Below are positions 29,889-55,600 of a stretch of 64,000 nucleotides of DNA, one piece after another. Location of the stretch: assembly GCA_951406725.2 (NCBI GenBank), contig OX597838.1:33604001-33668000 (forward strand), in the 5' to 3' direction. The position numbers were made by a program, and so were the translations under genes. The notes below the pieces were generated by a model. The model had not been told where the DNA came from. It made no database searches and worked only from the letters and a program-made list of their open reading frames with translations. The stretch's first letter is position 1, and each line of letters opens with the position of its first letter. This DNA comes from Octopus vulgaris (Eukaryota).

Positions 29889-32800
29889 ACGGGCTTCTTT
29901 CAGTTTCCGTCTACCAAATCCACTCAAAAGGCTTTGGTTGGCCCAAGGCTATAGCAGAAGACACTTGCCCAAGGTGCCATGCTGTGGGACTGAACCCGAA
30001 ACCATGTGGTTGGTAAGTAAGCTACTTAACACACAGCCACTCCTGTGCCTATGGAACATGCTTACAAAACTTTAAAAGAAAACACGCAATCAATTGTCCT
30101 AAGTAGACTTATCTCTGAATAAAAAATGGGAAGGATGAATTTTCTTCCAATCATAGGTTTGTACCTCTAGACGGTTGCTCAACGTGTTAGAAATAGCACA
30201 ATGATGCTGAGGATGAAGATGACTGGCATTATGAAGGGCGTCCAGCTATAGAAACCATGTCAAAACAGCTCCCAGTCTTGCCAGCTCTGGTCAAGCTGCC
30301 CAACCCATGCCAACATAAAAACGGACATTCACCCTTTAGCATTTAAACTGGCCATATCCAGCCTCTCACCCCTACCCTGCAATTTCATTCTAAAAACAAA
30401 ACAATCACATCATCGAAATCTCGAAGCTACAAGATAACGCATGCTTAATTAAAAATTAAAAAATTTTTTAATTTGACTCAATAAGCCTTATATTTCACAG
30501 AGTAATCTGATTGTTAAAGAGTTAAATCAGAGGTCCCTAAACATTTTCATCTCCCCACACGGCCGGGTACCCAGAATGCATTCCTCGTGCCACTCCACCA
30601 TTCACTACCACCACAAACATAGAACACTTTCAGCAACAAATTCAAAATAACTGTATTTCACAAATAAAACTTAACCTAACTAACCCATTGTGGAGGCACA
30701 TGGCCTAGTGGTTAGAGCAGCGGATTCGCAGTTGAGGAATTGCAGGTTCGAATCTCAGCCTGGGCGATGTGTGTGTTTATAAGCGAAACACCTAAGCTCC
30801 ACGCAGCTCCAGCAGAAGGTAATAGCAAACTTCTGCTGATTCTTTCGCCACAACTTTCTCTCACTCTTTCCTCTTGCAGCTCACCTGCGACGGACTGGCG
30901 TCCCGTCCAGGTGGGGAACCTTTACGCCAAGGAAACCGGCCCTTATGAGCCAGGTATGGCTTGAGAAGGAACAAACAACCAACCAACCCATTATTTTGTT
31001 TGCCTTTACATCACCTCGTTTTGACCACACCATTATCGCCTAACTTTTCCTTCAACACAAACCCCCCTGGGCAGGAAGGGTCAGTACTGCCCACTTTGGG
31101 AACCACTTGGGATGATGAAATCAAAAAGGCCACACTTACCTTCACAGATCCAAGGCCGCCAACATATATTCTCTCCTCTAAATCCAAAAGTAAATCCCGC
31201 AAATTCAGCTCAAGGATTTCTTTGGCGCTGCTCGTCTCCTCAGAGTCCTTACTGCCATTTTTGTTTTTATTTTTTTTCATCCTCTGTTCTACATCCTCCG
31301 GATCTTCAAACGGACAATTGCCAATTGATTCCTGAATCCGATCGCTGTTTTCCAGCAGGATCTGTTTCAGGAGTCCCTCTCGGAAGCCACGGGAATTTAA
31401 AGAATCCATAAGTTGGTTGAACTGTTCGGGCGACTTTATGTACGTCCAATGAACACGTTCTCTGTTTATAATTTTTTGTACAAACTCACTGTCCAAATAT
31501 GCGGGTCTCTCATCTTCATCTTCGTCGTCATCGTCATCATACTCTTCGTCATCGTCCTCCTCAGATTTGTCCATGCTGTCATCAGTCATGTCAGTCAAAT
31601 CTATCACACCGTTGCTACCCTTTTTCTCTGAAGTGGCTTCCTGTTTGTCTGTTTCCATGGGTTCAGTTTTATTAGTCTCAGGACTGGGAGTCTCAGACTC
31701 CTGCTTAACTGTCCCATCTTCTGTTGCCTTGCTTCCTTTTTCTTTGCTATCGCTCTCCTTCTCTCCATTTCCCTTTTTCTCACCTTCACCCTCTTTCTCT
31801 CCACTTTCCTTCTTAACATCACCTTCTTTCTTAACATCACTTTCCTTCTTAACATCACCTTCCTTTTTAACATCACCTTCCTTCTTCACATCACTTTCCT
31901 TTTTAACATCACCTTCCTTCTCTTCATCATGTTCCTTCTCCCCATCAACTTCCTTCTCCTCGCCACCTTCCTTCTCCCCATCACCATCTTCTTCCTTATC
32001 TTTCTCATCATCATCTACATTATCATCATCCTCCTCATCCTCCTCCTTAGAACTGGGCAACAATTCTGATGGGACAGTTTCATCGTTATCCTCAACGAAC
32101 AGCCCTGGTAATGAGCTGAAGGTCCAGTAACGCCGGTACATGCGGTCACGGCCGAGAGGGTATACAGCATTGCCCTGCTGGAGTTTAGCAATTGAATTTA
32201 GAAATTCTTTCTCCTTCTCCAAGTTTTCGCTCTTCTTCTTGGCATCAAGCTGTTCCCGTTTCTGCCAGTAAGCGTCCTTTTCTTCAGGGGTTAGTTCCTG
32301 TTCATTGATTTTCTCAAGGTCTTCGAGTTTATTGAATTTGTCGATTTGTACAAGGCGACTGCGTGACGTCTTTTTATCAGGTTTTTCTTTCTCCCTAAAA
32401 CAGAAGAAAACAAAAATGATTTTCAAAAACCTAAAAAACCCAGGAATATTACTTAACAAGGCATACATGAAAATAACTCAACTTTAGATCTTTCATTACA
32501 TACTCTTTTTACTCTTTTACTTGTTTCAGTCATTTGACTGCGGTCATGCTGGAGCACCGCCTTTAGTCGAGCAACTCGACCCCGGGACTTATTCTTTTGT
32601 AAGCCCAGTACTTATTTTATCGGTCTCTTTTGCCGAACCGCTAAGTGACGGGGACGTAAACACACCAGCATCGATTGTCAAGCAATGCTAGGGGGACAAA
32701 CACAGACACACAAACATACACATACATACATATATATATATACATATATACGACAGGCTTCTTTCAGTTTCCGTCTACCAAATCCACTCACAAGGCATTG

Positions 32801-40400: not shown

Positions 40401-43400
40401 AATAAATTAGCCATTGTTGAACGATCTGAATAACACATTTCTTCACTGAAATCTACAAAAGAAAAAAATTAACATTAACACTTTAACCCTTTAGTGTTCA
40501 GATTATTCTACCAAAATTAATGCTTTTTCATCCCCATTGTTTTGAACTAATCCTGCATTATCTTGTAGCTAGGAGATTTTGATGAGGTAGCTGTTAATTT
40601 TTAAAATGATATTGTAGGGTTGGTGTGAGAGACCAGATCTGGCCAGTTTGAACATAAAACAGGCAGAATACTTTTGGCCGGATATGGCCAGTTTAAATGC
40701 TAAAGGGTTAAACCAGTCGAATCTGGTCCAGTTATTTTATCGGTTTTATGAGCAAACTGGCCCTACAGGGTCATGCTAAAAATAAACAACCACATCATCA
40801 AGATCTTAAAGCTACGAGATAATGCAGGATTAATTGAAAAAATATGAATAAATATTACATTTGACAGGGTAATCTAAACGCTAAAGGGTTAGACAACCCA
40901 TATCTGTCATATCCAGTCCAAATATTCTACCCTACAATGTCCGGCAATGTCTAATATATTTTACGCCAACTGACCACGTGGATTTATTTATATATGATCG
41001 TCGATTTCCGTAAAAAACTTTTATTTTTTTACATATGGGGTTGGGGGGAAATGGGATCGTTAGGGTTAGGGTCGTAACCCTAATCCCAAACCCTAACCCA
41101 AAGATCCCATTTTGCCCCCCAACCCCATATGTAAAAAAATAAATGTAAAATAAGTTTTTTACGGAAATCGATGATCATATATAAACAAATACACATGGTC
41201 AGTTGATGTAAAATATACTAGAACCGTAAGATTGCCCAATGTCCTTCTAAAAGTAAATGAGATAATACACATCGTTCGTTCGTTTAACGTCCGTTCTCCA
41301 TGCTAGCATGGGTTGGACGGTTCGACCGGGGATCTGGGAAGCCAGAAGGCTGCACCAGGCTCCAGTCTGATCTGGCAATGTTTCTACGGCTGGATGCCCT
41401 TCCTAACGCCAACCACTCCATGAGTGTAGTGGGTGCTTTTTACGTGCCACCTGCACAGGTGGCAGGCGAGGCTGGCAACGACCATGATCGGATTGGTGCA
41501 TTTTACGTGCCACCGGTACGGAAGCCAGTTGAGGCGGCACTGGCATCGGCCACAATTCGATGGCGCTTTTTACGTGCCACCGGTACGGAAGCCAGTCGAG
41601 GCGGCGCTGGCATCGACACAATTAATTCAATACAATGAGAAACAAGCATCACATTTGACAGGGTAATGTGAAAGCTAGAGTTAAGGGACCAAATTCCACA
41701 CTAACAAAGGAATGGTAACAGCTCTGAATAATGGCTCTTTTATAGTTAATGGTTCTGGGGTTCATCCTCAAAACTTTGAAGCTTCTGTCTTATACCATTC
41801 TATTGAAATTTTAGCTGTTAATTTATAATTTATTCATATTTTCAGGATTAATTCTTGTCACAGCATTGCATCAAAGCATGACACACCTCCAATTAGACAG
41901 TAATAGAATAACCTGACACTCCCTCCATATTAGTAATAGCATCACCTGACACTCTCTCTGTATTTAATAACAGAATAATCTGACACTCCCCTATATTATG
42001 CAAACAAGAAATTTACAGCAAAGTCAGGTGAGTAGATAACTGAGTATCCCACAATATTTACCAGGTATGTTAGTCTTTCCTTTACTTAAATCAGGATCTT
42101 CTTCCTCTTCCTCAGACTCTTGCAGATAAAAAATGGCAACCAGCAACATAAGTAGGAGATCGGTGAGTGGCCCATTCACATCATTATCCAGTAAAGCTTC
42201 CTCCAAAACCTCTGAAAAATTCACAGGAAAACATAAAAAAAATGAATAAACATAAAAAAAAAATTAATAGGCGCAGGAGTGGCTGTGTGGTAAGTAGCTT
42301 GCTTACCAACCACATGGTTCCCGGTTCAGTCCCACTGCGTGGCATCTTGGGCAAGTGTCTTCTGCTATAGCCCCGGGCCGACCAATGCCTTGTGAGTGGA
42401 TTTGGTAGACGGAAACTGAAAGAAGCCTATCGTATATATGTATGTGTGTTTGTATGTCTGTGTTTGTCCCCCTAGCATTGCTTGACAACCGATGCTGGTG
42501 TGTTTACGTCCCCGTTACTTAGCGGTTCGGCAAAAGAGACCGATAGAATAAGTACTGGGCTTACAAAGAATAAGTCCCGGGGTCGATTTGCTCGACTAAA
42601 GGCGGTGCTCCAGCATGGCCACAGTCAAATGACTGAAGCAAGTAAAAGAGTAAAGAGTAAATAGAATAAAACAGGTACATAAACTGAACCCTTTTGTGAC
42701 CCTAATTCCTAAAGTAAGAATACACTTTGGGTTTCAGGTAATTTCCAAAATAATCAAGAACTCAGAACTGGGAGAAGGGTAATAAATTCATCATCGTTAT
42801 TTAGCATCCATTTTCCATGCTAGCATAGGTAAGATGGTTTCTGTGGGGATGGTAACCCAGAGAGCTGCACCAGGCTCCTGTCTGTTTTGGCTTGGTTTCT
42901 ACAGCTAGATGCCCTTCCTAATGCCCATCATTCCATAGAATATACTGGGTCTCTTTAAAAATCACCAGCACAAATACCTATGTGCGACCGTCATGGGTGA
43001 CCTTTCACGTGTCATCAGCATGTGTGGCCTTTCATGCATCACTGGTGCAAGTAGTTTTTCACGCATCACCAGCGCATGTGAGGAATTATGTACATTATTT
43101 ACATTCGACGGATATTTGTCCTCATCTTGTTTGTTGGTAACACAACGTTTCGGCTGATATACCCTCCAGCCTTCTTCAGGTGTCTTGGGGAAACCCAGGT
43201 TCGAAATTTCCCCAAGACACCTGATGAAAGCTGGAGGGTATATCGTGAAACCTGATGAAGGCTGGAGGGTATATCAGCCGGAAACCTGATGAAGGCTGGA
43301 CGGTATATCAGCCAAAACCTGAAGAAGGCTGGAGGGTATATCAGCCGAAACCTGATGAAGGCTGGACGGTATATCAGCCGAAACCTGATGAAGGCTGGAG

Positions 43401-46400
43401 GGTATATCAGCCGAAACCTGATGAAGGCTGGAGGGTATATCAGCCGAAACCTGATGAAGGCTGGAGGGTATATCAGCCGAAACCTGATGAAGGCTGGAGG
43501 GTATATCAGCCGAAACCTGATGAAGGCTGGAGGGTATATCAGCCGAAACCTGATGAAGGCTGGAGGGTATATCAGCCGAAACCTGATGAAGGCTGGAGGG
43601 TATATCAGCCGAAACCTGATGAAGGCTGGAGGGTATATCAGCCGAAACCTGATGAAGGCTGGAGGGTATATCAGCCGAAACCTGATGAAGGCTGGAGGGT
43701 ATATCAGCCGAAACCTGATGAAGGCTGGAGGGTATATCAGCCGAAACCTGAAGAAGGCTGGAGGGTATATCAGCCGAAACCTGATGAAGGCTGGAGGGTA
43801 TATCAGCTGAAACCTGATGAAGGCTGGAGGGTATATCAGCTGAAACCTGATGAAGGCTGGAGGGTATATCAGCTGAAACCTGATGAAGGCTGGAGGGTAT
43901 ATCAGCTGAAACGTGTGAACAACAAACACGATGAGGACAAATATGTCATATGTAAATAATGTGCTTTTTATATTTATTATAAAATAAAACTCGTAAACAT
44001 GGTGCCTCGTAAAGTGAGGTACTACAGTACACAACAGGCTTCTTTCAGTTTCTGTTCACCAAATCCACTCACAAGTTTTTCATTGGCCCAGGGCTAGAGT
44101 AGAAGACACTTGCCCATGGTGAGACTAAACCTTGCGGTCGGGAAGCAAACTTCTTATTTCTTTACTGCCCACAAGGGGCTAAACATAGAGGGAACAAACA
44201 AGGGCAGACAAAGGGACTAAGTTGATTACATCGATCCCTAGTGCGTAACTGGTACTTAATTTATCGACCCCAAAAGGATGAAAGGTAAAGTCGACCTCGG
44301 CGGAATTTGAAGCGAACTTCTTACCACACATTCCACGCCTGCAGCTACGTGTATAAAAGTGATAGAATGCGTTTCTGTTGCGGATCCGTGGAATAAGCTG
44401 CCAGACGAGATGGTGGAGATGCCGACGAACGCTCAGTTCAAAGTCTCCCTTGACCTCAAGTGGCCTGAACTATTTACATGAACACCACCCTGTACATAAC
44501 TCCATGTCCCCCTACATGGCCTTGCTTTTTGCTTTTTGAGCCAAAAAATTAACTAACTAACAACACTATATTCCCTGTCTCAGCAGGCATTGAACATCAG
44601 GTTTATGACCAGGCATTCTGGCCAACACGATGCCTGTTATAGACCAATTTCTTACCCCTAAAAGGAATATTCCTCTTGCTTGCTTAATACTACAGAAACC
44701 TGGGGGGAAAAGACTGAATAAACACCTGGTGAACCATGAGAATTGGGAGGATCATCATAGTCAAACTCGTTCCTGACACTCACCCATGCAAACGTGGGAG
44801 GGCAAACATAAAATAATGGTAATTTCACTTAGGCAAATATCTTTACCAAAAAACCAAAGACAGAATGCAAGCAGGTGAGTAGGTAGGGGAAACAAGGTTT
44901 TAATGATTGTGTGACTTACCTAAGGTCATCCCGGAAGGGAAATATTCATTTAAATCAAACAAACTTTGGAATGTATGGATAAATTCTAGCACCATCAATG
45001 CATCACCAAACAGTTCTTGTGGTAGTCTTGTTTGTACAGGTAAGAGATCTGGTAACGACTAAAAAGAAAAAAAAAAGAAAAAGGTAATAATTGATCAGAT
45101 TTAATGAGAGCAAAGAAAAACAGAGTCAGGTAGTACAACGAAAGCCAGGGAACTTGCTAACTGTTGTCCTTTTGTTGATGTTTGGCTCCAGGTGGTCAGA
45201 TTTAATCCACCAAACATGTGATCAGAAGATTATTGGCCCAAGGACCATCATGATTTATTTTTTATTTTTTCAATTATACAGACACATATTATAATACATC
45301 ATATACCTTGCAGTATAATAAATACTTACTATATTCATCATAATCATCGTTTAACGTCCGATTTCCATGCTAGCACGGGTTGGATGGTTCAACTGGGGGT
45401 CTGAGAAGCCAGGGGCTGCACCAGGCTCCAGTCTGATCTGGCAGTGTTTCTACAGCTGGATGCCCTTCCTAACGCCAACCACTCCGCGAGTGTAGTGGGT
45501 GATTTTTACGTGCCACCTGCACAGGTGCCAGGGGAGTTTGGCATCGGCCACGATCGGTTGGTGCTTTTAACATGCTACCGGCACGGAAGCCAGCCAAGGC
45601 GGCGCTGGCATTGGCTACGTTCGGATGGTGCTTTTTATGTGCCACCGGCACAGAAGCCAGTCGAGGCGGCGCTGGCAACAGCCACGTTCGGAATATATTA
45701 TATAATAGTGAGGAGGGGGGTAATGTTTAACACGAGAATGAAGGCTAGCGGGTTTCAATAGTAGATCACAGAATTTGTCTCTGCGCTGCACACCAGCTTT
45801 AAGTTGCTGAGTTTATATTCAAAGACCATTATAGAAGAACATTCTTTATAATTATTATGCAACTGAATGCAGCACAACAGCCATATGTGGGTACGGACAC
45901 TACATCTATCTTGACGAATCACATGTGGTATCAAAAGAGGTAGACATCAATATTGTCAAGAAGAAGACTACATTTATTGAATGATACAGATTATAGAGAC
46001 TCACATACAAGACTTTAAGTTTCTGTGTCAACAATATGATGATCGTTACACTTCTTCAGTTGTCATGAGGCTGGTGGGTGCTCATATACATAGAATTTTA
46101 TAAACTTATAATTTAATTACAAAACATCAAACAGAGCTGACACACATTAATAATTCAGAAATAACTGGAGTCCACTTAGCTGACAAAAATGAGGAGTACT
46201 AGTATTTCAAAGGGCCAGGTTGTTACATTCTGTGTCACGCTGAATCCCACTGAAAACTATCTTAAGGGTACACTTGTCAGTGGTGTGCTCGGCCACTTGC
46301 ACATTAATTTCACATGTAGGCTGTTGAATGGATCAACTAGAACACTCATTGTCATAACCAAGTGCCAGTTCTAACTGGAGTGTATATAATTATATACACC

Positions 46401-48499
46401 CTATAATATTTACTAATAACATTTATACACCCTATAACATTTACTAATAACATTTATACACCCTATAACATTTACTAATAACATAATTAACATAGGACTG
46501 ACATTTACTAATAATATACTAATAATTTAGCTACACAAACCTTGAGATCTTCACATTCCAAATCGTCACGAGGTCGGCTCCATTCTTTTAAATATTCAGC
46601 CTGGATACGTTTCTCTTCTCTTTTCTTATCCCTTTCCTACCGCAAGAGAAAAGGGGCTTGTTAAAACAGAGACCAACACAGAATCTTAAACGCAAATACT
46701 TACAAACACAACACCAAATACACACTTAATGTTGTTACATGAAGTAGACTATATTTATTGAATGATACAGATTAGAGAGACTCACATACAAGACTAAGTT
46801 TCTGTGTCAACATGATGATCGTTACACTTCTTCAGTTGTCATGAGGCTGGTTAGTGCTCATATATATAGAATTTTATAAACTTATAATTTAATTACAAAA
46901 CAGCAAACAGAAGTCTTTATGATAAACTTAGTTCTTTCGTTGTTTTTTTCTTAACATCCGCTCTTCCATGCTTGCCTTGGTCAGACAGAATTTGTTGAGG
47001 AGGATTTTTTCTACAGACAGACGCCCTTGCACATGTTGCCAAATCTTCCATGAAAACATGCTTGGTCATGTTTTCACAGAAGATCAGAAACTAAGGACAA
47101 CTGTTTGCATAACAGTGACACTCATTTACAACTATCACGAGATACAAATACATACATACATTGAATTAGTATAGTTTGCAGGAAGCACTGCCTGATATAG
47201 AAAAAAAATTTTTCATTTTTTAAACCAAAACAAAGCAAGTTATGATAAATAACCCTTTCTACTAAAGGCACAGAGCTTGAAACTTTGGGGGAGGTGTTAG
47301 TCGTCATCGTCATCATCATTTAACGTTCGCTTTCCATGCAAGCATGGGTTGCACGATTTTGACTGAGGTCTGGCAAATCAGATGGCTGCGCCAGGCACCA
47401 ATCTGATCTGGCAGAGTTTCTACAGCTGGATGCCCTTCCTAACGCAAACCACACTGAGAGTGTAGTGGGTGCTTTTACGTGCCACCAGCACAAGGGCCAG
47501 CCAGGCAGTACTGGCAACGGCAAAAATGGTGCTCTTTATGTGCCACCTGCACAGAAGTCAGTCCAGTGGCACCAGCAATGACCTCGCTCGAATGTTTTTA
47601 CAGCAACCCAAGTGTACAACTAGGGCTTATTTTTTGCCTTTCATCCATTTAAGCAGAGTCGAAATAATAAATTTGGTTCGTACTTTTATCTTGTATTTCA
47701 GTATTCCAGGGTTTCAGGATTAGTACCCCTTCTTCAGGAAATCTTCAATAAAACGGTGCTGAAGAAGGCGCCTTAATAAGACCCTGTCTTTGTGTTCTGA
47801 GTTCAAATTCCGCCGAGGTCAACTTTGCCTTTCATCCTTTCAGGGTCGCTTAAATAAGTACCAGTTACACACTGGAGTCGATGTAATCCACTTAATCCCT
47901 TTGTCTGTCCGTGTTTGTCCCCTCTATGTTTAGCCCCTTGTGGGCAATTAAGAAATAAATATTGAAATACAAGGTAAAAATACAAACCATTGGCTTGCAT
48001 TATTTCTTATAACTTGCATTGTCTTGATTTAAAATAAACAAACATGTATATATATAGGCACAGGAGTGGCTGTGTGGTAAGTAGCTTGCTTACCAACCAC
48101 ACGGTTCCAGGTTCAGTCCCACTGCATGGCACCTTGGGCAAGTGTCTTCTACTGTAGCCTCGGGATAACCAAAGCCTTGTGACTGGATTTAGTAGACGGA
48201 AACTGAAAGAAGCCCGTCGTGTATATATATATGTGTGTGTGTGCGTTTGCGTGTTTGTGTTTATCTCCACCCCAAAAAGAACATCGCTTGACAACCGATG
48301 CTGGTGTGTTTGCGTCCCCATTACTTAGCGGCTCAGCAAAAGAGACTGATAGAATAAGTACTAGGCTTACAAAGAATAAGCCCTGGGAACGATTTGCTCG
48401 ACTAAAAAAGGCGGTGCTCCAGCATGGCCGCAGTCAAATGACTGAAACAAGTAAAAGAGTATATTTACACACACAAAATTTCCTGAACTACACGTATAA

Positions 48500-48532
<33 letters not shown>

Positions 48533-49162
48533 CACACCAAACATAACATACAACCACATCTATAAACACCAAATACAACACTAACAAAAGCAGTCCATCT
48601 GAATGGGGGGAGGGCAAAAAACACAAAACCACAAAGAGCTTACCCTTTCTCTTTCTAATCTTCTCTTTTCTTTCTCCTCATCAAGTCGCCTCTTTATCTC
48701 CTCTCGACGTGCGTTACGTTCGGCAATCTTTTCCTGTTTCACTCTCTCCTTAAACGCTTCCCGTTCCTCGGGACTCATGCGCATGAATGCCATCTTTTCA
48801 TCTTCAATCGCCTTCAATTCTGCAAAACGTAATAAAACACCATTACCTGATACGCTGCTTTCAGCTATTGGACAGTGGCCGTAGGTGCCGGAGCGGCTGT
48901 GTGGTAAGTAGCTTGCTTACCAACCACATGGTTCTGGGTTCAGTCCTACTATGTGGCACCTTGGGCAAGTGTTTTCTACTGTAGCCTCAGGCCAACCAAA
49001 ACCCTGTGAGTGGATTTGGTAGATGGAAACTGTGTGTGTATATATATATATATATGTGTGTATATATGTGTGTGTGTGTGTATATGTATATATGTGTATA
49101 TATATATATGTGTATATGTATATATATGTATGTATATATGTATGTATGTATGTGTATATATA

Positions 49163-49824: not shown

Positions 49825-52015
49825 TGTGTGTGTGTGTGTGTGTGATATTATTTCCCAAGACCCTGCCTAGGATTGAACTCAGCATCTGAGGGTTAATAGC
49901 CTGCACTCATATCCACTATGCGATATGCCCATAGGTAATTATCGAGTGAATTTTGAGGATTATAAACCTAATATTTTATCTTTTCTTAATACTTATTTCT
50001 TTAGTACCCACAAGGGGCTAAACACAGAGGGGACAAACAAGGACAGACATAAGTATTAAATCGATTACATCGACCCCAGTGCGTAACTGGTACTTAATTT
50101 ATCGACCCCGAAAGGATGAAAGGCAAAGTCGACCTCGGCGGAATTTGAACACACAACGTAACGCAGACGAAATACCGCTAAGCATTTCGCCCGGCGTGAT
50201 AACGATTCTGCCAGCTCGTCGCCTTAATACTGCCTGGGACTGAACTCAGCATCTGAGGGTCAGTAGCCTGCACTCATATCCACTATGCGATATGCCCATA
50301 GGTAATTATCGAGTGAATTTGGGGGCTTATAAACCTAATATTTTACCTTTTCTTAATACTGGTTCCGATAATTACATTCCTATCTGCACCAAGTCTGCTT
50401 AGGAGGTGATTGTGTCCTAGCATATGTGCAGCCTCTTAATTTTCGTATTTTCCATACATGTATAGGCTATACCCGATTTTTCAGTATCCCCTCATATCAG
50501 CTTTACGATGTTCCTCTACCCTTATTTTAAGGGAGTGGCATGTTTCGCCTTTGTATATAACCTACTGCAACTGCATGGGGTGGAGTACACCCAGCCAACC
50601 TTCAAGGACAATACCATAACTTCAATTCCCACCATCCATACAGTATAAAGAGAGGGACTGCTAAGTGCCCCAAACATCGAGCAAAGACTATAAGAACGAT
50701 CCTGATACCACAAAGAAACAACCTCCTAACGAACAACTACCACTCCAATTAGGAAGAAGGGAGAGGATGACACCCATAAACTGACCACAGTCTGTCTACC
50801 CAGGGTCAAAAGCCTCTTGGAAAAGATATGCGGTCCATATGACATCAGGACAATATTCAGAAGTAATAGAACACTTTGAAAATATCTTCTCCAAGTAAAA
50901 ACCACCCATAGAAGAGAATATAACAAAAAACTGTGTGTACTCCATCCCATACAGTTGTGGTAGGTTATACAAAGGCAAAACATGCTACCCCCTTAAAATA
51001 AGGGTAGAGGAACATCATAAAGGTGTGATATTAATTTATCGACCCCGAAAGTATAAGTTGACCTCAGCAGAATTTGAACTCAGAACGTAAAGACAGGCGA
51101 AATACCACTAAGCATTTCGCCCAGCATGCTAACATTTCTGCCAGCTCAATGTCTTAACCCTTTCATTACTGTATTTATTTTGAGATGATCTGTGTTTCTT
51201 TCAATTATTTTAAATATAACAAAGAATTTAGTAAAATAACTTAGTTATCATTAAGCTAGTGTTAGGAACATAAATTGTGACTAAGGTTTGGTGGTATATT
51301 TTGATGCAAAACTTATGAAAACAAGACATTTGTACTACAGAGCCAGAGCCGGTTTTGGCCGGGTTAGTAACGAAAGGGTTAAACAGTACACAAACTGTTA
51401 ATAGCCTGGACCTGCCAGTCCAGTTAGCAAGTAACTGCTATCATCTTTAGTCATGGCATGCACAGATGCGATATTTCAGCAAGTGAAGAACCGGTGTGAC
51501 TAAAACCCACGCCAGACGTCCACACCACATCACTTGATCAGGACTCTTCTGGCGTGGAAAAGTTGCACTGGTCCAGGCTAGTCACTCAACTAGATGAGGA
51601 CTTAATTTGAAATTTAAAAAGTAACAAAAGAAAAAAGCAAAAAAAAAATTCTATTCTTACGTTTGTTTTTATCTGATAAGTTATTGTTCTTCTTTGCGTC
51701 ATTGCCTCGCATAGTGTAGTCGTTCATACTGTTGTCGGAAGGACTCTGGGACATGATATTGAGATTTGGATTCAAATAGGAGTTCTTCTTCCTCTTGGCT
51801 TGTGACACAGCAAACAAAGGTTTCGGGCCAGCAAAAAAGCTCTCAAAACGTAACTCCATCAACTTTAATGATTTTATTATGCTATCCTGAAATATAAAAG
51901 TGAAAAGCAAGGAGAAACATTAATATATATTTTTGCAAGGGGATGCCCCAGCATGACCTTGGTCAAGACTGAAACAAGTAAAAGATCAAAGAGTGTATGT
52001 GTATGTGTGTGTGTG

Positions 52016-52619: not shown

Positions 52620-55600
52620 CATGTTCATCATGACCGACCAGGCTATCAGATGTTGCTACACATCGCTGATCACAATGCGCTTCACATTGTTTTAGCCTTC
52701 AAATGACGCCACCCCGCTGGCTAAGCGAGCAGGCCAACAGAAGAAAGAGTGAGAGAAAGTTGTGGCGAAAGAGTTACAGCAGGGATCGTCGCCACCACCC
52801 TGCCGGAGCTTCGTGCAGCTTTAGGTGTTTTCGCTCAAGAAACACTCACGATGCCCGGTCTGGGAATCGAAACCGCGATCTTACGACCACGAGTCCGCTG
52901 CCCTAACCACTGGGCCAGTGTGCCTCCACACACACATATATATATATATATACACACACACTCACTCACACAAGCAGCTAGCAGTCTTCTGCTAGCCACT
53001 TGATAATCTTTTCACATTTGATTCCTAATTCTAATAATTTCTGGTATTGTCTACTGTTATGTCTTTGCTGCTAAATGTTCTTTTTCAGTCGCATATTTTG
53101 ACATTCCTTTGGTTGAACCTGCAGAAATGCCAAAATTAACAGCTGGTTTTTGTTGATTAATTTCTGTAAAAGGCTCTTATCTATTTACTTTGTTTTAAAG
53201 TGAAAGATGTATGTGCGTGTATATAAAATGGACATGAAAGAAATAGAGAGAGATGTGTGCATATGTATTTATGTATGTACACATACATGACAAAACATCT
53301 CTTCACTCTCTCTCTCACACACACACACACAAAAACACATACATAAATGTATACAAGCATACATACAAAAACACGCATGACTGACTGACTACAAATACAT
53401 AGAGCTGAACATGGTACACAAAAAGTAAATAAATAAAGTAATTTTAAGGAAATTGTGCAGGTTCAAGAAAAAGAATGCCCATATTTTTTTGGACACCCCA
53501 TGTTAAATTGCAAAATTATAATGTAGGTTAAGTTGACAGTATACAACCATTCTATCGCCCCACCACCGTACATATCTCTATGAGAGATTTAGAAATTTAA
53601 TATTTCTGATTTTGGTGATCAGTGAATAAACTTCACTGAAAATTAGATATATATATTTGAGAAGTCGAGACAGATATCTTCAGCTAGCAGGCCTCTGCTA
53701 CTCTAGACCGATGATGGGCAAAGACCCTGAAACATGCGTGTCTCTAGATGCAGGCCTAGCTGTTGGGGGTGTTTGTCTCCCCTTTGTAAATATATAAGGA
53801 CACAGGAAATGTGTCGAAGCCGACAGGAAGCGTCGATGCTTCCTAGGGCTAAACAGCGGTGGTGTAATCCCCTACTGTCACGTTAAGTTGACAGTATACA
53901 ACCACTCTATCGCCCCACCACCGTACATATCTCTATGAGATATTTAGAAATTTAATATTTCTAATTTTTATGTAATATTTGTGTAATAATGAAAACAAAC
54001 CTGGAGTGTGTGTATGTGTTTATATTACAGAGACTGTGTGTGTGTGTGTATGATGGAGTAAGTACCAGGGAATAACTATACACACAACAGTTACTTGCTT
54101 TGCTAGAAATAGCAACAAAAACCTTTAACTGTTTAGCATTCAGATTGCTCAGTCAAATGTATTGATCATTTAATCACATTGTTTTAAATTAATCATGCAT
54201 TATCTCATATCTTCCGAGGTTTTGATAATGTGGTTGTTCATTTCTAGAATGACACTGTAGGGTATGTCTGAGAGACCTGATCTGGCCAGTTTGAACATAA
54301 AACAAGTAGAATACTTAGGCTGGATAATCGCCGGTTTAAATGCTAAATGGCTAAATCACACCCTACTGGCCTGGTAGGGAAGTCGAATAAGGAAGACCCT
54401 TAACCAATCAGTCAAGCGATAAAAACCAAATCAATTTCTTACCTTTACTGTCCATACGCCGTCAACGACGTAACAATTCTGTTTTAAGAATAATTTACTT
54501 TTGTCCCTGGTATAGAGTCCCTTTTTACGACTGCAAGTAAAGACAATAAAATAAATATCAACGAAAGGGAACAGCACACAGGGGGTTAAAGATGAAGAAA
54601 TGGGGAGGGAGTTTATGAGAGGGAGGGCATCATGGAAGAAAGGGTTATGAGGGAGAGGGGTTATGGGAGAGGAGTTAGATTTCTGAAAGAAAATTTCATC
54701 TTGTCTTAGACTCGTGAAAATAATATGAAATCGAACTTTTATTTTAGACAAGCAGAAAGGACCTGGTTTCACCCAGGGGTAAATATTTCATAAAGGACCT
54801 GTTTCTGCCTTGGTGTGAAATAACACAATAGAGAGAGAATGACAGAGATGTTGCCATTATGGTATAAAATGTCCTTTACTATCTTGTACATAGCAAATGC
54901 ACAAACACGCACACACTCGCAGACACATACACACTCATATACAAAAGGTGACGCCATCACCGTCATATAAAATGTCCTTTACTACAGTTGACTATTAGAA
55001 AGATTATTTGAGAAAATGTTATATTGTTTCAATCCGAATGAAGATAAAAATTACATGTTGACATTCGCAGGATCTAGTACTATTACTCTTTTACTTGTTT
55101 CAGTCATTTGACTGCAGCCATGCTGGAGCACCGCCTTTAATCGAGCAAACCGACCCCGGGACTTATTCTTTGTAAGCCCAGTACTTATTCCATCGGTCTC
55201 TTTTGCCGAACCGCTAAGTGACAGGGACATAAACACTCCAGCATCGGTTGTCAAGCAATGCTAGGGGGACGAACAGACACACAAACATACACGCACACAT
55301 ATATATATATATATATACGACGGGCTTCTTTTCAGTTTCCATCTACCAAATCCACTCAAAAGGCTTTGGTCAGCCCGAGGCTATAGTAAAAGACACTTGC
55401 CCAAGGTGCCACGCAGTGGGACTGAACCCGGAACCATGTGGTTGGTAAACAAGCTACTTACCACACGGTAAAATTTGATTTGATGGGGCCATTTGAGAAT
55501 GCATAGGGAATAGGCAGAGAGACAAAATTTTCTATAGAGAGAGATTGATACACATACACTCAAGCATATGTACATATTTAGATGTGCACTAATATTTATG

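What the first reader, a model, noticed from the sequence alone, without database searches (positions are those of the whole stretch)
45964..46910. A BAZ1A exon bracketed by two sense-strand hammerhead ribozymes: possible ribozyme-driven exon excision or circularisation
Seen: a ~170-bp sequence is directly duplicated (45964-46134 and 46746-46910) on either side of the 96-nt, phase 0-0 exon 46541-46636. On the BAZ1A (minus) strand each copy folds as a type-I hammerhead (CUGAAGA, stem II, GAAA, stem III, GUC, stem I of ~7 bp) followed by AATAAA. The indels between copies fall in loops II and III. Known: hammerhead cleavage leaves 5'-OH and 2',3'-cyclic phosphate ends that RtcB can ligate, as proposed for retrozyme circRNAs. 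Inference: double cleavage (46792/46791 and 46011/46010) would release a 781-nt RNA carrying a host exon, which could circularise and leave in-frame exon skipping or a truncated pre-mRNA. Caveat: an A.A mismatch closes stem II, which may impair catalysis.
Basis: partly seen in the sequence, partly recalled or inferred. Interest (0 to 1): 0.82.

Follow-up and report, generated by a model that had tools for sequence, protein, structure and literature searches.

The report
Retrotransposon hammerhead relics flanking BAZ1A exon
Two near-identical hammerhead-ribozyme-like motifs flank a small exon of the chromatin gene BAZ1A, but they belong to a scattered repeat family, likely the decayed end of a Penelope-type retrotransposon that was copied locally, and the exon is spliced in normally in the transcript data examined, so ribozyme-driven exon excision is possible but unlikely.

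Summary
A ~185-bp direct duplicate (91.5% identical) brackets the in-frame 96-nt BAZ1A exon, and both copies carry a type I hammerhead-like motif on the sense strand; the predicted cuts lie 781 nt apart. The motif is not special to this gene. It is the 3' end of an old dispersed repeat (45 other loci examined) with Penelope-like hallmarks: 23 of 45 loci have an inverted 5'-truncated partner, and 19 of 31 complete 3' ends run into microsatellite. A young intact Hydra-type Penelope-like element in this genome (3,352 exact motif copies) has the same odd architecture, including the A.A flank, so that flank is family design rather than decay. No ORF was found directly joined to the old family. Copy B is the near-complete insertion; copy A is a partial local duplicate with two deletions that weaken stems II and III. 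Three other short local duplications occur in this window. Transcript contigs from one study include the exon; no skip or circular joint was listed, though contigs drop rare forms. One hint of retention remains: 0 of 71 substitutions inside the motif against 9 of 111 outside. Verdict: most likely a neutral transposon relic; functional excision about 7%.

The parts
45911..46135 (-). Copy B: near-complete 3' end of the dispersed repeat (hammerhead-like motif, AATAAA, family tail); inferred original insertion
   Evidence: Family profile aligns through the whole tail, model positions 211-404; tail end read
45997..46072 (-). Hammerhead-like motif B; predicted cut after GUC at 46011; stem III ACUU-A-AAGU palindrome
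46728..46911 (-). Copy A: partial local duplicate of B, lacking the last ~45 nt of the family tail
   Evidence: a shared upstream 30-mer occurs only in these two places of the genome at up to 2 mismatches
46778..46848 (-). Hammerhead-like motif A; predicted cut after GUC at 46792; 3-nt and 2-nt deletions relative to B and the family majority
46541..46636 (-). 96-nt phase 0-0 coding exon of the BAZ1A/ACF1-like gene, just upstream of the DDT exon
   Evidence: spliced joint to the upstream exon in runs X1 and X2
46011..46791 (-). 781-nt RNA that double cleavage would release (hypothetical)
   Evidence: arithmetic; no read support
48644..48819 (-). Upstream BAZ1A exon, spliced to 46636
44920..45058 (-). 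Downstream BAZ1A exon with the start of the DDT domain
   Evidence: Pfam PF02791 E 3.2e-6; on the same X1 contig
46393..46485 (.). Three 31-bp tandem units in the spacer between the copies; unrelated to the family

Best explanation
The two motifs are copies of a dispersed hammerhead-bearing repeat, likely the 3' pseudo-LTR end of an extinct Penelope-like retrotransposon that inserted in this BAZ1A intron and was then partly duplicated upstream of the exon, and they likely cut too slowly to affect splicing. Shown: the repeat is dispersed; B carries the full tail and A a partial one; the pair shares private sequence; the exon is included in transcript contigs. Inferred: in the source element the hammerhead processed element RNA, probably as a dimer through the palindromic stem III. 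One 5'-truncated copy landed in sense orientation 630 nt downstream of the exon and decayed (17 differences from the family majority are shared by A and B). A later local event (template switch, or tandem duplication followed by deletion) put ~185 bp of it in the upstream intron. The exon is bracketed by accident, and any self-cleavage is slower than splicing of the 2.0-kb and 1.5-kb introns.
For: Dispersed family: 43 and 50 matches, lower bounds; 45 distinct other loci examined. Penelope-like hallmarks: 23 of 45 loci with a head-to-head inverted partner; 19 of 31 complete 3' ends followed by microsatellite against 11% background; ragged 5' ends, with a few copies reaching ~700 nt upstream. 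A young element with an intact 727-aa ORF and 1.13-kb direct repeats carries CUGAUGA-A-stem-A-GAAA plus a 9-nt palindrome with a central base, then AAUAAA, a tail and (TA)n; 3,352 exact copies, 12 tight head-to-head pairs among the first 100 listed. Its ORF has the RWK and DKT motifs that PMC8557442 section 11 gives for the Hydra clade. RT fragments of that type lie within 1 kb, same strand, of three loci holding the family's far 5' arm (L127, L177, L180). Local duplication: private 30-mer; three other 87-218-bp local duplicates in the window; a second family pair on C20, 93.6% identical, with a broken motif. An intact core is common among copies: 21 of 54. Exon inclusion in runs X1 and X2. 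PLE minimal hammerheads showed no monomer cleavage and low dimer cleavage in PMC4209133.
Against: No ORF was found joined to the family: 0 of 20 nine-kb regions around the best RT matches held it, the one apparent link (L126) failed in 29 of 29 other loci of that element, and the tail likeness to the young element is not significant (529 of 2000 shuffles as good). The window pair has 0 substitutions in 71 motif bases against 9 in 111 outside (Fisher p=0.010; 0.08 when indels count), whereas the C20 pair has 5 of 72 inside. Only 5 of 54 other copies keep core plus proximal stems, and both window copies do. Both have an A-U pair where the family majority has G-C at the base of stem I (2 of 33 rows). 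The transcript evidence is contigs from one study and cannot show rare forms.
Confidence: 0.72

Rival explanations
1. The pair is a young domestication: both motifs are kept active, alone or as an intramolecular double hammerhead (A core on B site, B core on A site), and slow cleavage lowers or tunes BAZ1A mRNA output without making a circle, as proposed for intronic ribozymes in vertebrates.
For: 0 of 71 substitutions inside the motif; core and proximal stems intact in both; the double-hammerhead topology is nested and costs about the same as two monomers (+20.3 versus +20.1 kcal/mol); precedent in CPEB3 (PMC10919898 passages) and amniote intronic hammerheads (PMC6155905 passages).
Against: A substitution-free run this long has P=0.07 under random placement, similar to unrelated local duplicates (0.08-0.8). 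Copy A has lost the stem III palindrome by a deletion also seen in 2 of 31 other rows. The fold costs +7.6 (A) and +9.9 (B) kcal/mol against the ensemble at 37 C (secondary structure only).
Confidence: 0.1
2. One reading: double cleavage frees a 781-nt RNA with the host exon, a tRNA ligase circularises it, and the remaining pre-mRNA skips the exon in frame or is degraded.
For: The geometry is exact and the exon is phase 0-0. RtcB circularised double-cleaved retrozyme monomers in vitro (PMC7229834 passages).
Against: Contigs of runs X1 and X2 join 48644 to 46636, and X1's contig continues into the DDT exon with the spacing of an included exon; no skip joint and no back joint at 46011/46791 among the 15 joints shown (list cut, rare forms dropped). 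Both cuts must beat splicing. The spacer is unique host sequence, not a repeat unit.
Confidence: 0.06
3. The arrangement repeat-spacer-repeat-plus-tail is itself a retro-insertion product: a Penelope-like RT copied an RNA holding the exon and left a partial tandem, replacing the original locus.
For: [quoted passage not shown]
Against: The exon sits in its expected place between its neighbours; no second copy of the spacer in either flanking intron; the family looks long extinct (copies differ from the majority at about 20% of motif positions) while the pair differs by only 5%.
Confidence: 0.04
4. The repeat is a hammerhead-bearing non-autonomous element (SINE-like or retrozyme-like) rather than the end of an autonomous Penelope-like element; the local story is otherwise as in the best explanation.
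For: No ORF is joined to any copy found; most copies are 200-300 bp.
Against: Inverted 5' partners, microsatellite targets and long AT-rich 5' arms; no head-to-tail arrays seen among 45 loci.
Confidence: 0.08

Closest known systems
Hammerhead motifs in pseudo-LTRs of Penelope-like elements (Cervera and de la Pena 2014, PMC4209133)
   Same: Type I fold; CUGANGAH G...C opening as in their consensus (supplement); long stem II; short palindromic stem III; mostly solo copies or close opposite-strand pairs from truncated elements.
   Different: An extra A sits between the stem II closing C and GAAA, which their consensus line lacks; here two direct copies flank a host exon.
Hydra clade of Penelope-like elements (Craig et al. 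2021, PMC8557442)
   Same: A young element in this genome has RWK and DKT motifs, a (TA)n target and a pLTR hammerhead with the same A.A flank and 9-nt palindrome.
   Different: The window's family has no ORF joined to it in the loci examined, and nucleotide homology to the young element is not significant.
Metazoan non-LTR retrozymes (PMC7229834; bioRxiv 10.64898/2026.07.22.740005)
   Same: Two type I hammerheads in direct orientation on one transcript, which could release a unit-length RNA for RtcB ligation.
   Different: Retrozymes are head-to-tail repeats of a whole ~300-nt unit; here only 185 bp repeat and the 592-bp spacer is unique host sequence. The preprint's abstract reports exclusion of retrozymes from introns and exons.
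Intronic ribozymes in host genes: RECK and C10orf118 hammerheads, CPEB3 HDV-like ribozyme
   Same: Sense-strand, intronic, near a coding exon.
   Different: Those are single, deeply conserved motifs with shown activity (PMC6155905, PMC3088659, PMC10919898 passages); this one is a member of a decaying repeat family and neither conservation nor activity is shown.

Membership tests
Type I hammerhead ribozyme | Core CUGANGA, GAAA and NUH in order | tested here: met
   CUGAAGA, GAAA, GUC in both copies
Type I hammerhead ribozyme | Stems I, II and III can form | tested here: met
   Constrained folds exist; 85.7% of cells paired against 30-45% for slid controls. Stem III is 1-2 bp plus A-U as a monomer.
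Type I hammerhead ribozyme | Base pair 10.1-11.1 directly before G12 | tested here: not met
   An unpaired A lies on each side of the G-C pair; family majority, 39 of 56. Natural U.U at this place is reported (PMC3088659 passage); no data on A.A were found.
Type I hammerhead ribozyme | Match to an Rfam hammerhead model | tested here: not met
   No hit at gathering score or at E<=10
Type I hammerhead ribozyme | Covariation supporting the stems | tested here: inconclusive
   9 pairs with two-sided change versus 7.4 in shuffles (130/500); covariation score 14/500; expected if copies decay after insertion
Type I hammerhead ribozyme | Loop 1-loop 2 tertiary contact | not tested
   No model attempted
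Type I hammerhead ribozyme | Self-cleavage | not testable with these tools
   Needs an in vitro assay
Penelope-like element pLTR remnant | Hammerhead near the element's 3' end | tested here: met
   Predicted cut about 100 nt before the family 3' end; about 110 nt in the young element
Penelope-like element pLTR remnant | Inverted 5'-truncated copy adjacent at the 5' end | tested here: met
   23 of 45 loci; absent at the window locus itself
Penelope-like element pLTR remnant | 5' truncation with fixed 3' end and microsatellite target | tested here: met
   19 of 31 3' ends versus 11% background; 5' extents vary
Penelope-like element pLTR remnant | RT plus GIY-YIG ORF upstream of the repeat | tested here: inconclusive
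   None joined: 0 of 20 regions, L126 link failed. Hydra-type RT fragments lie near three long-arm loci.
Non-LTR retrozyme | Head-to-tail tandem of whole units, each with a hammerhead | tested here: not met
   592-bp spacer is unique; 1 direct pair in 45 other loci and no array
Non-LTR retrozyme | Abundant unit-length circular RNA | not testable with these tools
   Only contigs were available
Domesticated intronic ribozyme (RECK type) | Conservation across distant species above intron background | not testable with these tools
   No related genome is held; two DNA-like runs under other organism labels are 96-99% alike, too close to tell
BAZ1A/ACF1 host gene | WAC, DDT, WSD, PHD and bromodomain in order | tested here: met

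The most novel reading that the evidence does not exclude
A locally duplicated transposon hammerhead has created a natural double-ribozyme cassette around a conserved in-frame exon of a chromatin remodeller: the two copies fold as a double hammerhead, cut out a 781-nt exon-bearing RNA that is ligated into a circle, and divert part of BAZ1A pre-mRNA to exon skipping or decay. This would be a spliceosome-independent route to a host-exon circular RNA.
Probability: 0.07. Interest if true: 0.8.

Novelty: new member of a known kind. Interest (0 to 1): 0.3.

Why it matters
If neutral, it is one more intronic Penelope relic in a genome with thousands of such motifs, and it warns that hammerhead pairs around exons arise by chance. 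It still leaves a small useful result: two separate Penelope-like families here use a hammerhead variant with an unpaired A on both sides of stem II, which the Rfam models miss and whose activity is an easy assay. If the pair were active in cells, it would be a natural case of ribozymes excising and circularising a host exon; my searches listed engineered systems and retrozymes but no such natural case, though the library lacks most subscription papers.

Tried and rejected
Rfam scans: no hammerhead hit. Free folding: the hammerhead is not the minimum-energy fold; the energy penalties ignore tertiary contacts, and the young element's motif also pays +5.7 kcal/mol, so I give them little weight. 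Linking the family to an ORF: 15 GIY-YIG loci held no family copy; the endonuclease fragment beside L126 belongs to another family (0 of 29 other loci carry the repeat); 20 regions around RT matches held none; tail homology to the young element is not significant. One search was swamped by an unrelated SINE. In one search the L177 pieces were translated out of frame, so the IIWFNPP motif at L177 is read by eye. Core conservation across copies (8.5% mismatch versus 18.4% in the tail) was rejected as proof of selection: much of the gap is CpG decay outside the core and search-seed bias around GAAA. 14 of 70 collected copies were dropped before the intact-core count because they do not span the motif. 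Sequencing runs: no RNA holder on record was listed; low depth over the motifs and missing skip or back joints are not evidence of absence, as the tables are cut, contigs drop rare forms and bases 45055-45091 were skipped. Earlier findings of this scan: none. Total copy number could not be measured; counts are lower bounds. Lunse et al. 2016 on PLE hammerhead dimers was not available (title seen in a reference list only).
Full report
Observation. The minus strand of 45600-47300 holds two direct copies of a ~185-bp stretch, 45949-46135 (B) and 46728-46911 (A), 91.5% identical. Each reads stem I, CUGAAGA, A, stem II, A, GAAA, a short stem III, GUC, stem I, and then AATAAA. Predicted cuts after 46792 and 46011 bound 781 nt. 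Between them lies a 96-nt exon, 46541-46636, with AG/GT ends and phase 0-0. The host has WAC, DDT, WSD and PHD domains and a bromodomain closest to BAZ1A. Rfam does not detect the motif and it is not the minimum-energy fold.

The motif is a dispersed repeat. Searching the genome with copy A gave 43 matches, with 40 of 80 candidates scored; a second seed gave 50. These are lower bounds. Other copies are 76-91% identical to the window and cover the motif and a 3' tail. Among 45 distinct other loci, 23 carry a head-to-head inverted partner, 20 are single, one is a direct pair and one a distant inverted pair; 19 of 31 complete 3' ends are followed by microsatellite against 11% of random windows. 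A few copies extend up to ~700 nt upstream in AT-rich sequence. PMC8557442 (passages and section 11 read) lists 5' truncation, adjacent inverted copies and microsatellite targets as Penelope-like features, and PMC4209133 (parts 1-2 of 4 read) describes solo and close opposite-strand hammerheads as probable truncated PLEs.

The hammerhead is a family property. A 33-row alignment pairs at 85.7% of cells against 30-45% for slid controls, but covariation does not clearly beat shuffles, as expected for copies decaying after insertion. Stem III is a palindrome ACUU-N-AAGU whose central base varies freely (G29, A20, C14, T3), which fits dimer pairing (inference). The A.A flank is the majority state, 39 of 56. 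In the published PLE consensus (supplement passage) the first A is the expected extra base and G-C follows; the second A is the departure.

Link to Penelope-like elements. The genome holds intact PLEs: a 781-aa RT plus GIY-YIG ORF with 456-bp direct repeats and a 727-aa ORF with 1.13-kb direct repeats. The latter has RWK and DKT motifs given for the Hydra clade (Pfam has no hit). Its repeat ends with CUGAUGA-A-CG-GCAA-CG-A-GAAA, a palindrome ACUC-A-GAGU, AAUAAA, a tail and (TA)n: the same unusual design. That 39-mer occurs 3,352 times exactly, with 12 tight head-to-head pairs among the first 100 listed. RT fragments of this type lie within 1 kb of three loci with the old family's far 5' arm; the L127 and L180 fragments hit only one other locus among all those held. 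Against this: no ORF is joined to the old family in any locus and tail homology to the young element is not significant. So the PLE origin rests on architecture and association, not on a full-length copy.

Origin of the pair. The family profile aligns with B through the whole tail but with A only to about 25 nt past AATAAA. A 30-mer upstream of the motif is found only in A and B. Over 98 columns A and B share 17 differences from the family majority, and A has two private deletions, one of which recurs in 2 of 31 other rows. So one old insertion (B) decayed and was later partly copied to A. No remnant of a duplicated spacer was found in either intron, so the exact mechanism is open. Such events are common here: three other 87-218-bp local duplicates at 88-97% identity in this window and a 281-bp, 93.6% pair of this same family on C20 whose motif is broken.

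Is it under selection? For: 0 substitutions in 71 motif bases versus 9 in 111 outside (p=0.010; 0.029 with the fading end trimmed; 0.08-0.22 when indels count); both copies keep core and proximal stems, as only 5 of 54 others do, and both have a two-sided change at the base of stem I. Against: 21 of 54 other copies keep the core; the pair counts as one inherited state; the substitution-free run has P=0.07 under random placement, like unrelated duplicates; A's deletions damage the stems. The signal is a hint, not more.

Transcripts. No run on record as RNA holds the stretch. Four runs were laid on 44850-48950, all as contigs. X1 and X2 (guessed RNA, one study) both show the joint 48644 to 46636. 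X1's 2,663-nt contig covers the upstream exon at record 967-1143 and the DDT exon at 1243-1377; the 99 letters between equal the remaining 95 exon bases plus 4 skipped ones, so the exon is included. No skip or back joint at the predicted sites is among the 15 joints shown, but 3,527 more are hidden and contigs drop rare forms. Contigs of two DNA-like runs under other organism labels cover A (X20) and B (X19) at 96-99% identity.

Mechanism and odds. PLE minimal hammerheads showed no monomer and low dimer cleavage (PMC4209133), and slow intronic ribozymes did not affect splicing in work cited by PMC10919898 (passages). A double hammerhead between A and B is topologically possible but costs about +20 kcal/mol against the ensemble in a secondary-structure model (weak evidence). 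I put a neutral PLE relic with local duplication at 0.72, retained regulatory cleavage at 0.10, a non-PLE repeat at 0.08, exon excision with circularisation at 0.06, and retro-mediated rearrangement at 0.04.

Literature seen. Passages only: PMC13282606, PMC7229834, PMC6765202, PMC6155905, PMC3088659, PMC10919898. bioRxiv 10.64898/2026.07.22.740005: part 1 of 5; its supplements are closed. Supplements searched by term: PMC8557442 (octopus rows shown were Naiads, 2 of 4 places) and PMC4209133 (no octopus; one of its files could not be searched, and it may hold further variants). Searches listed no paper on this locus, on an A.A-flanked hammerhead, or on natural ribozymes bracketing a host exon; the library is incomplete.

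Verdict. Real motif, known kind, most likely accidental placement. Interest 0.3.

Noticed in passing
L230 2200-2360 (minus strand); G000 genome-wide: Young Hydra-type Penelope-like element (727-aa intact ORF, 1.13-kb pLTR) with a very small hammerhead: 2-bp stem II flanked by A.A and a palindromic stem III; 3,352 exact copies of the 39-mer, many as tight head-to-head pairs. A better substrate than the window pair for testing this variant.
   Followed up: partly
L088 430-885 and 5217-5672: Intact Penelope-like element with a 781-aa RT/GIY-YIG ORF, a 359-aa upstream open frame and 99% identical 456-bp pLTRs; near the pLTR end a hammerhead-like motif of the U3-A8 type (UUGAUAA...GAAA), read by eye.
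   Followed up: partly
window 6850-7574, 49863-50360, 53527-53968: Three other short local direct duplications (218, 131 and 87 bp; 88-97%) around 236-300-bp spacers; the one at 49863 flanks a SINE-like repeat and looks like an unusually long target-site duplication.
   Followed up: partly
L059 197-474 and 1501-1781 (G000 C20): Second local direct pair of the same family, 93.6% identical, 1.3 kb apart, with a broken stem II; used as control.
   Followed up: yes
window 47681-47737 (minus): A further CUGAAGA...GAAA stretch in the upstream intron with a short hairpin but no valid stem I or cleavage triplet; perhaps a decayed motif of another family; it fails the stem-aware scan.
   Followed up: no
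L034, L089, L125, L139, L140, L151, L172, L195, L211: Several other hammerhead-like motifs with palindromic stem III in PLE-rich loci, some with U.U at the stem II flank: this genome has many PLE hammerhead families.
   Followed up: no
window 43249-43959: Long tandem array of a 30-bp unit (CTGAAGAAGGC...GAAA-like) in the intron downstream of the DDT exon, giving long spurious open frames.
   Followed up: no
window 46639: Two DNA-like runs (X19, X20) read G on the plus strand here, turning the exon's acceptor from TAG to CAG.
   Followed up: no
window 31453-32130 (within the large minus-strand exon): The WSD-bearing BAZ1A exon contains a long acidic, repetitive insert ([12 protein letters not shown] repeats).
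   Followed up: no
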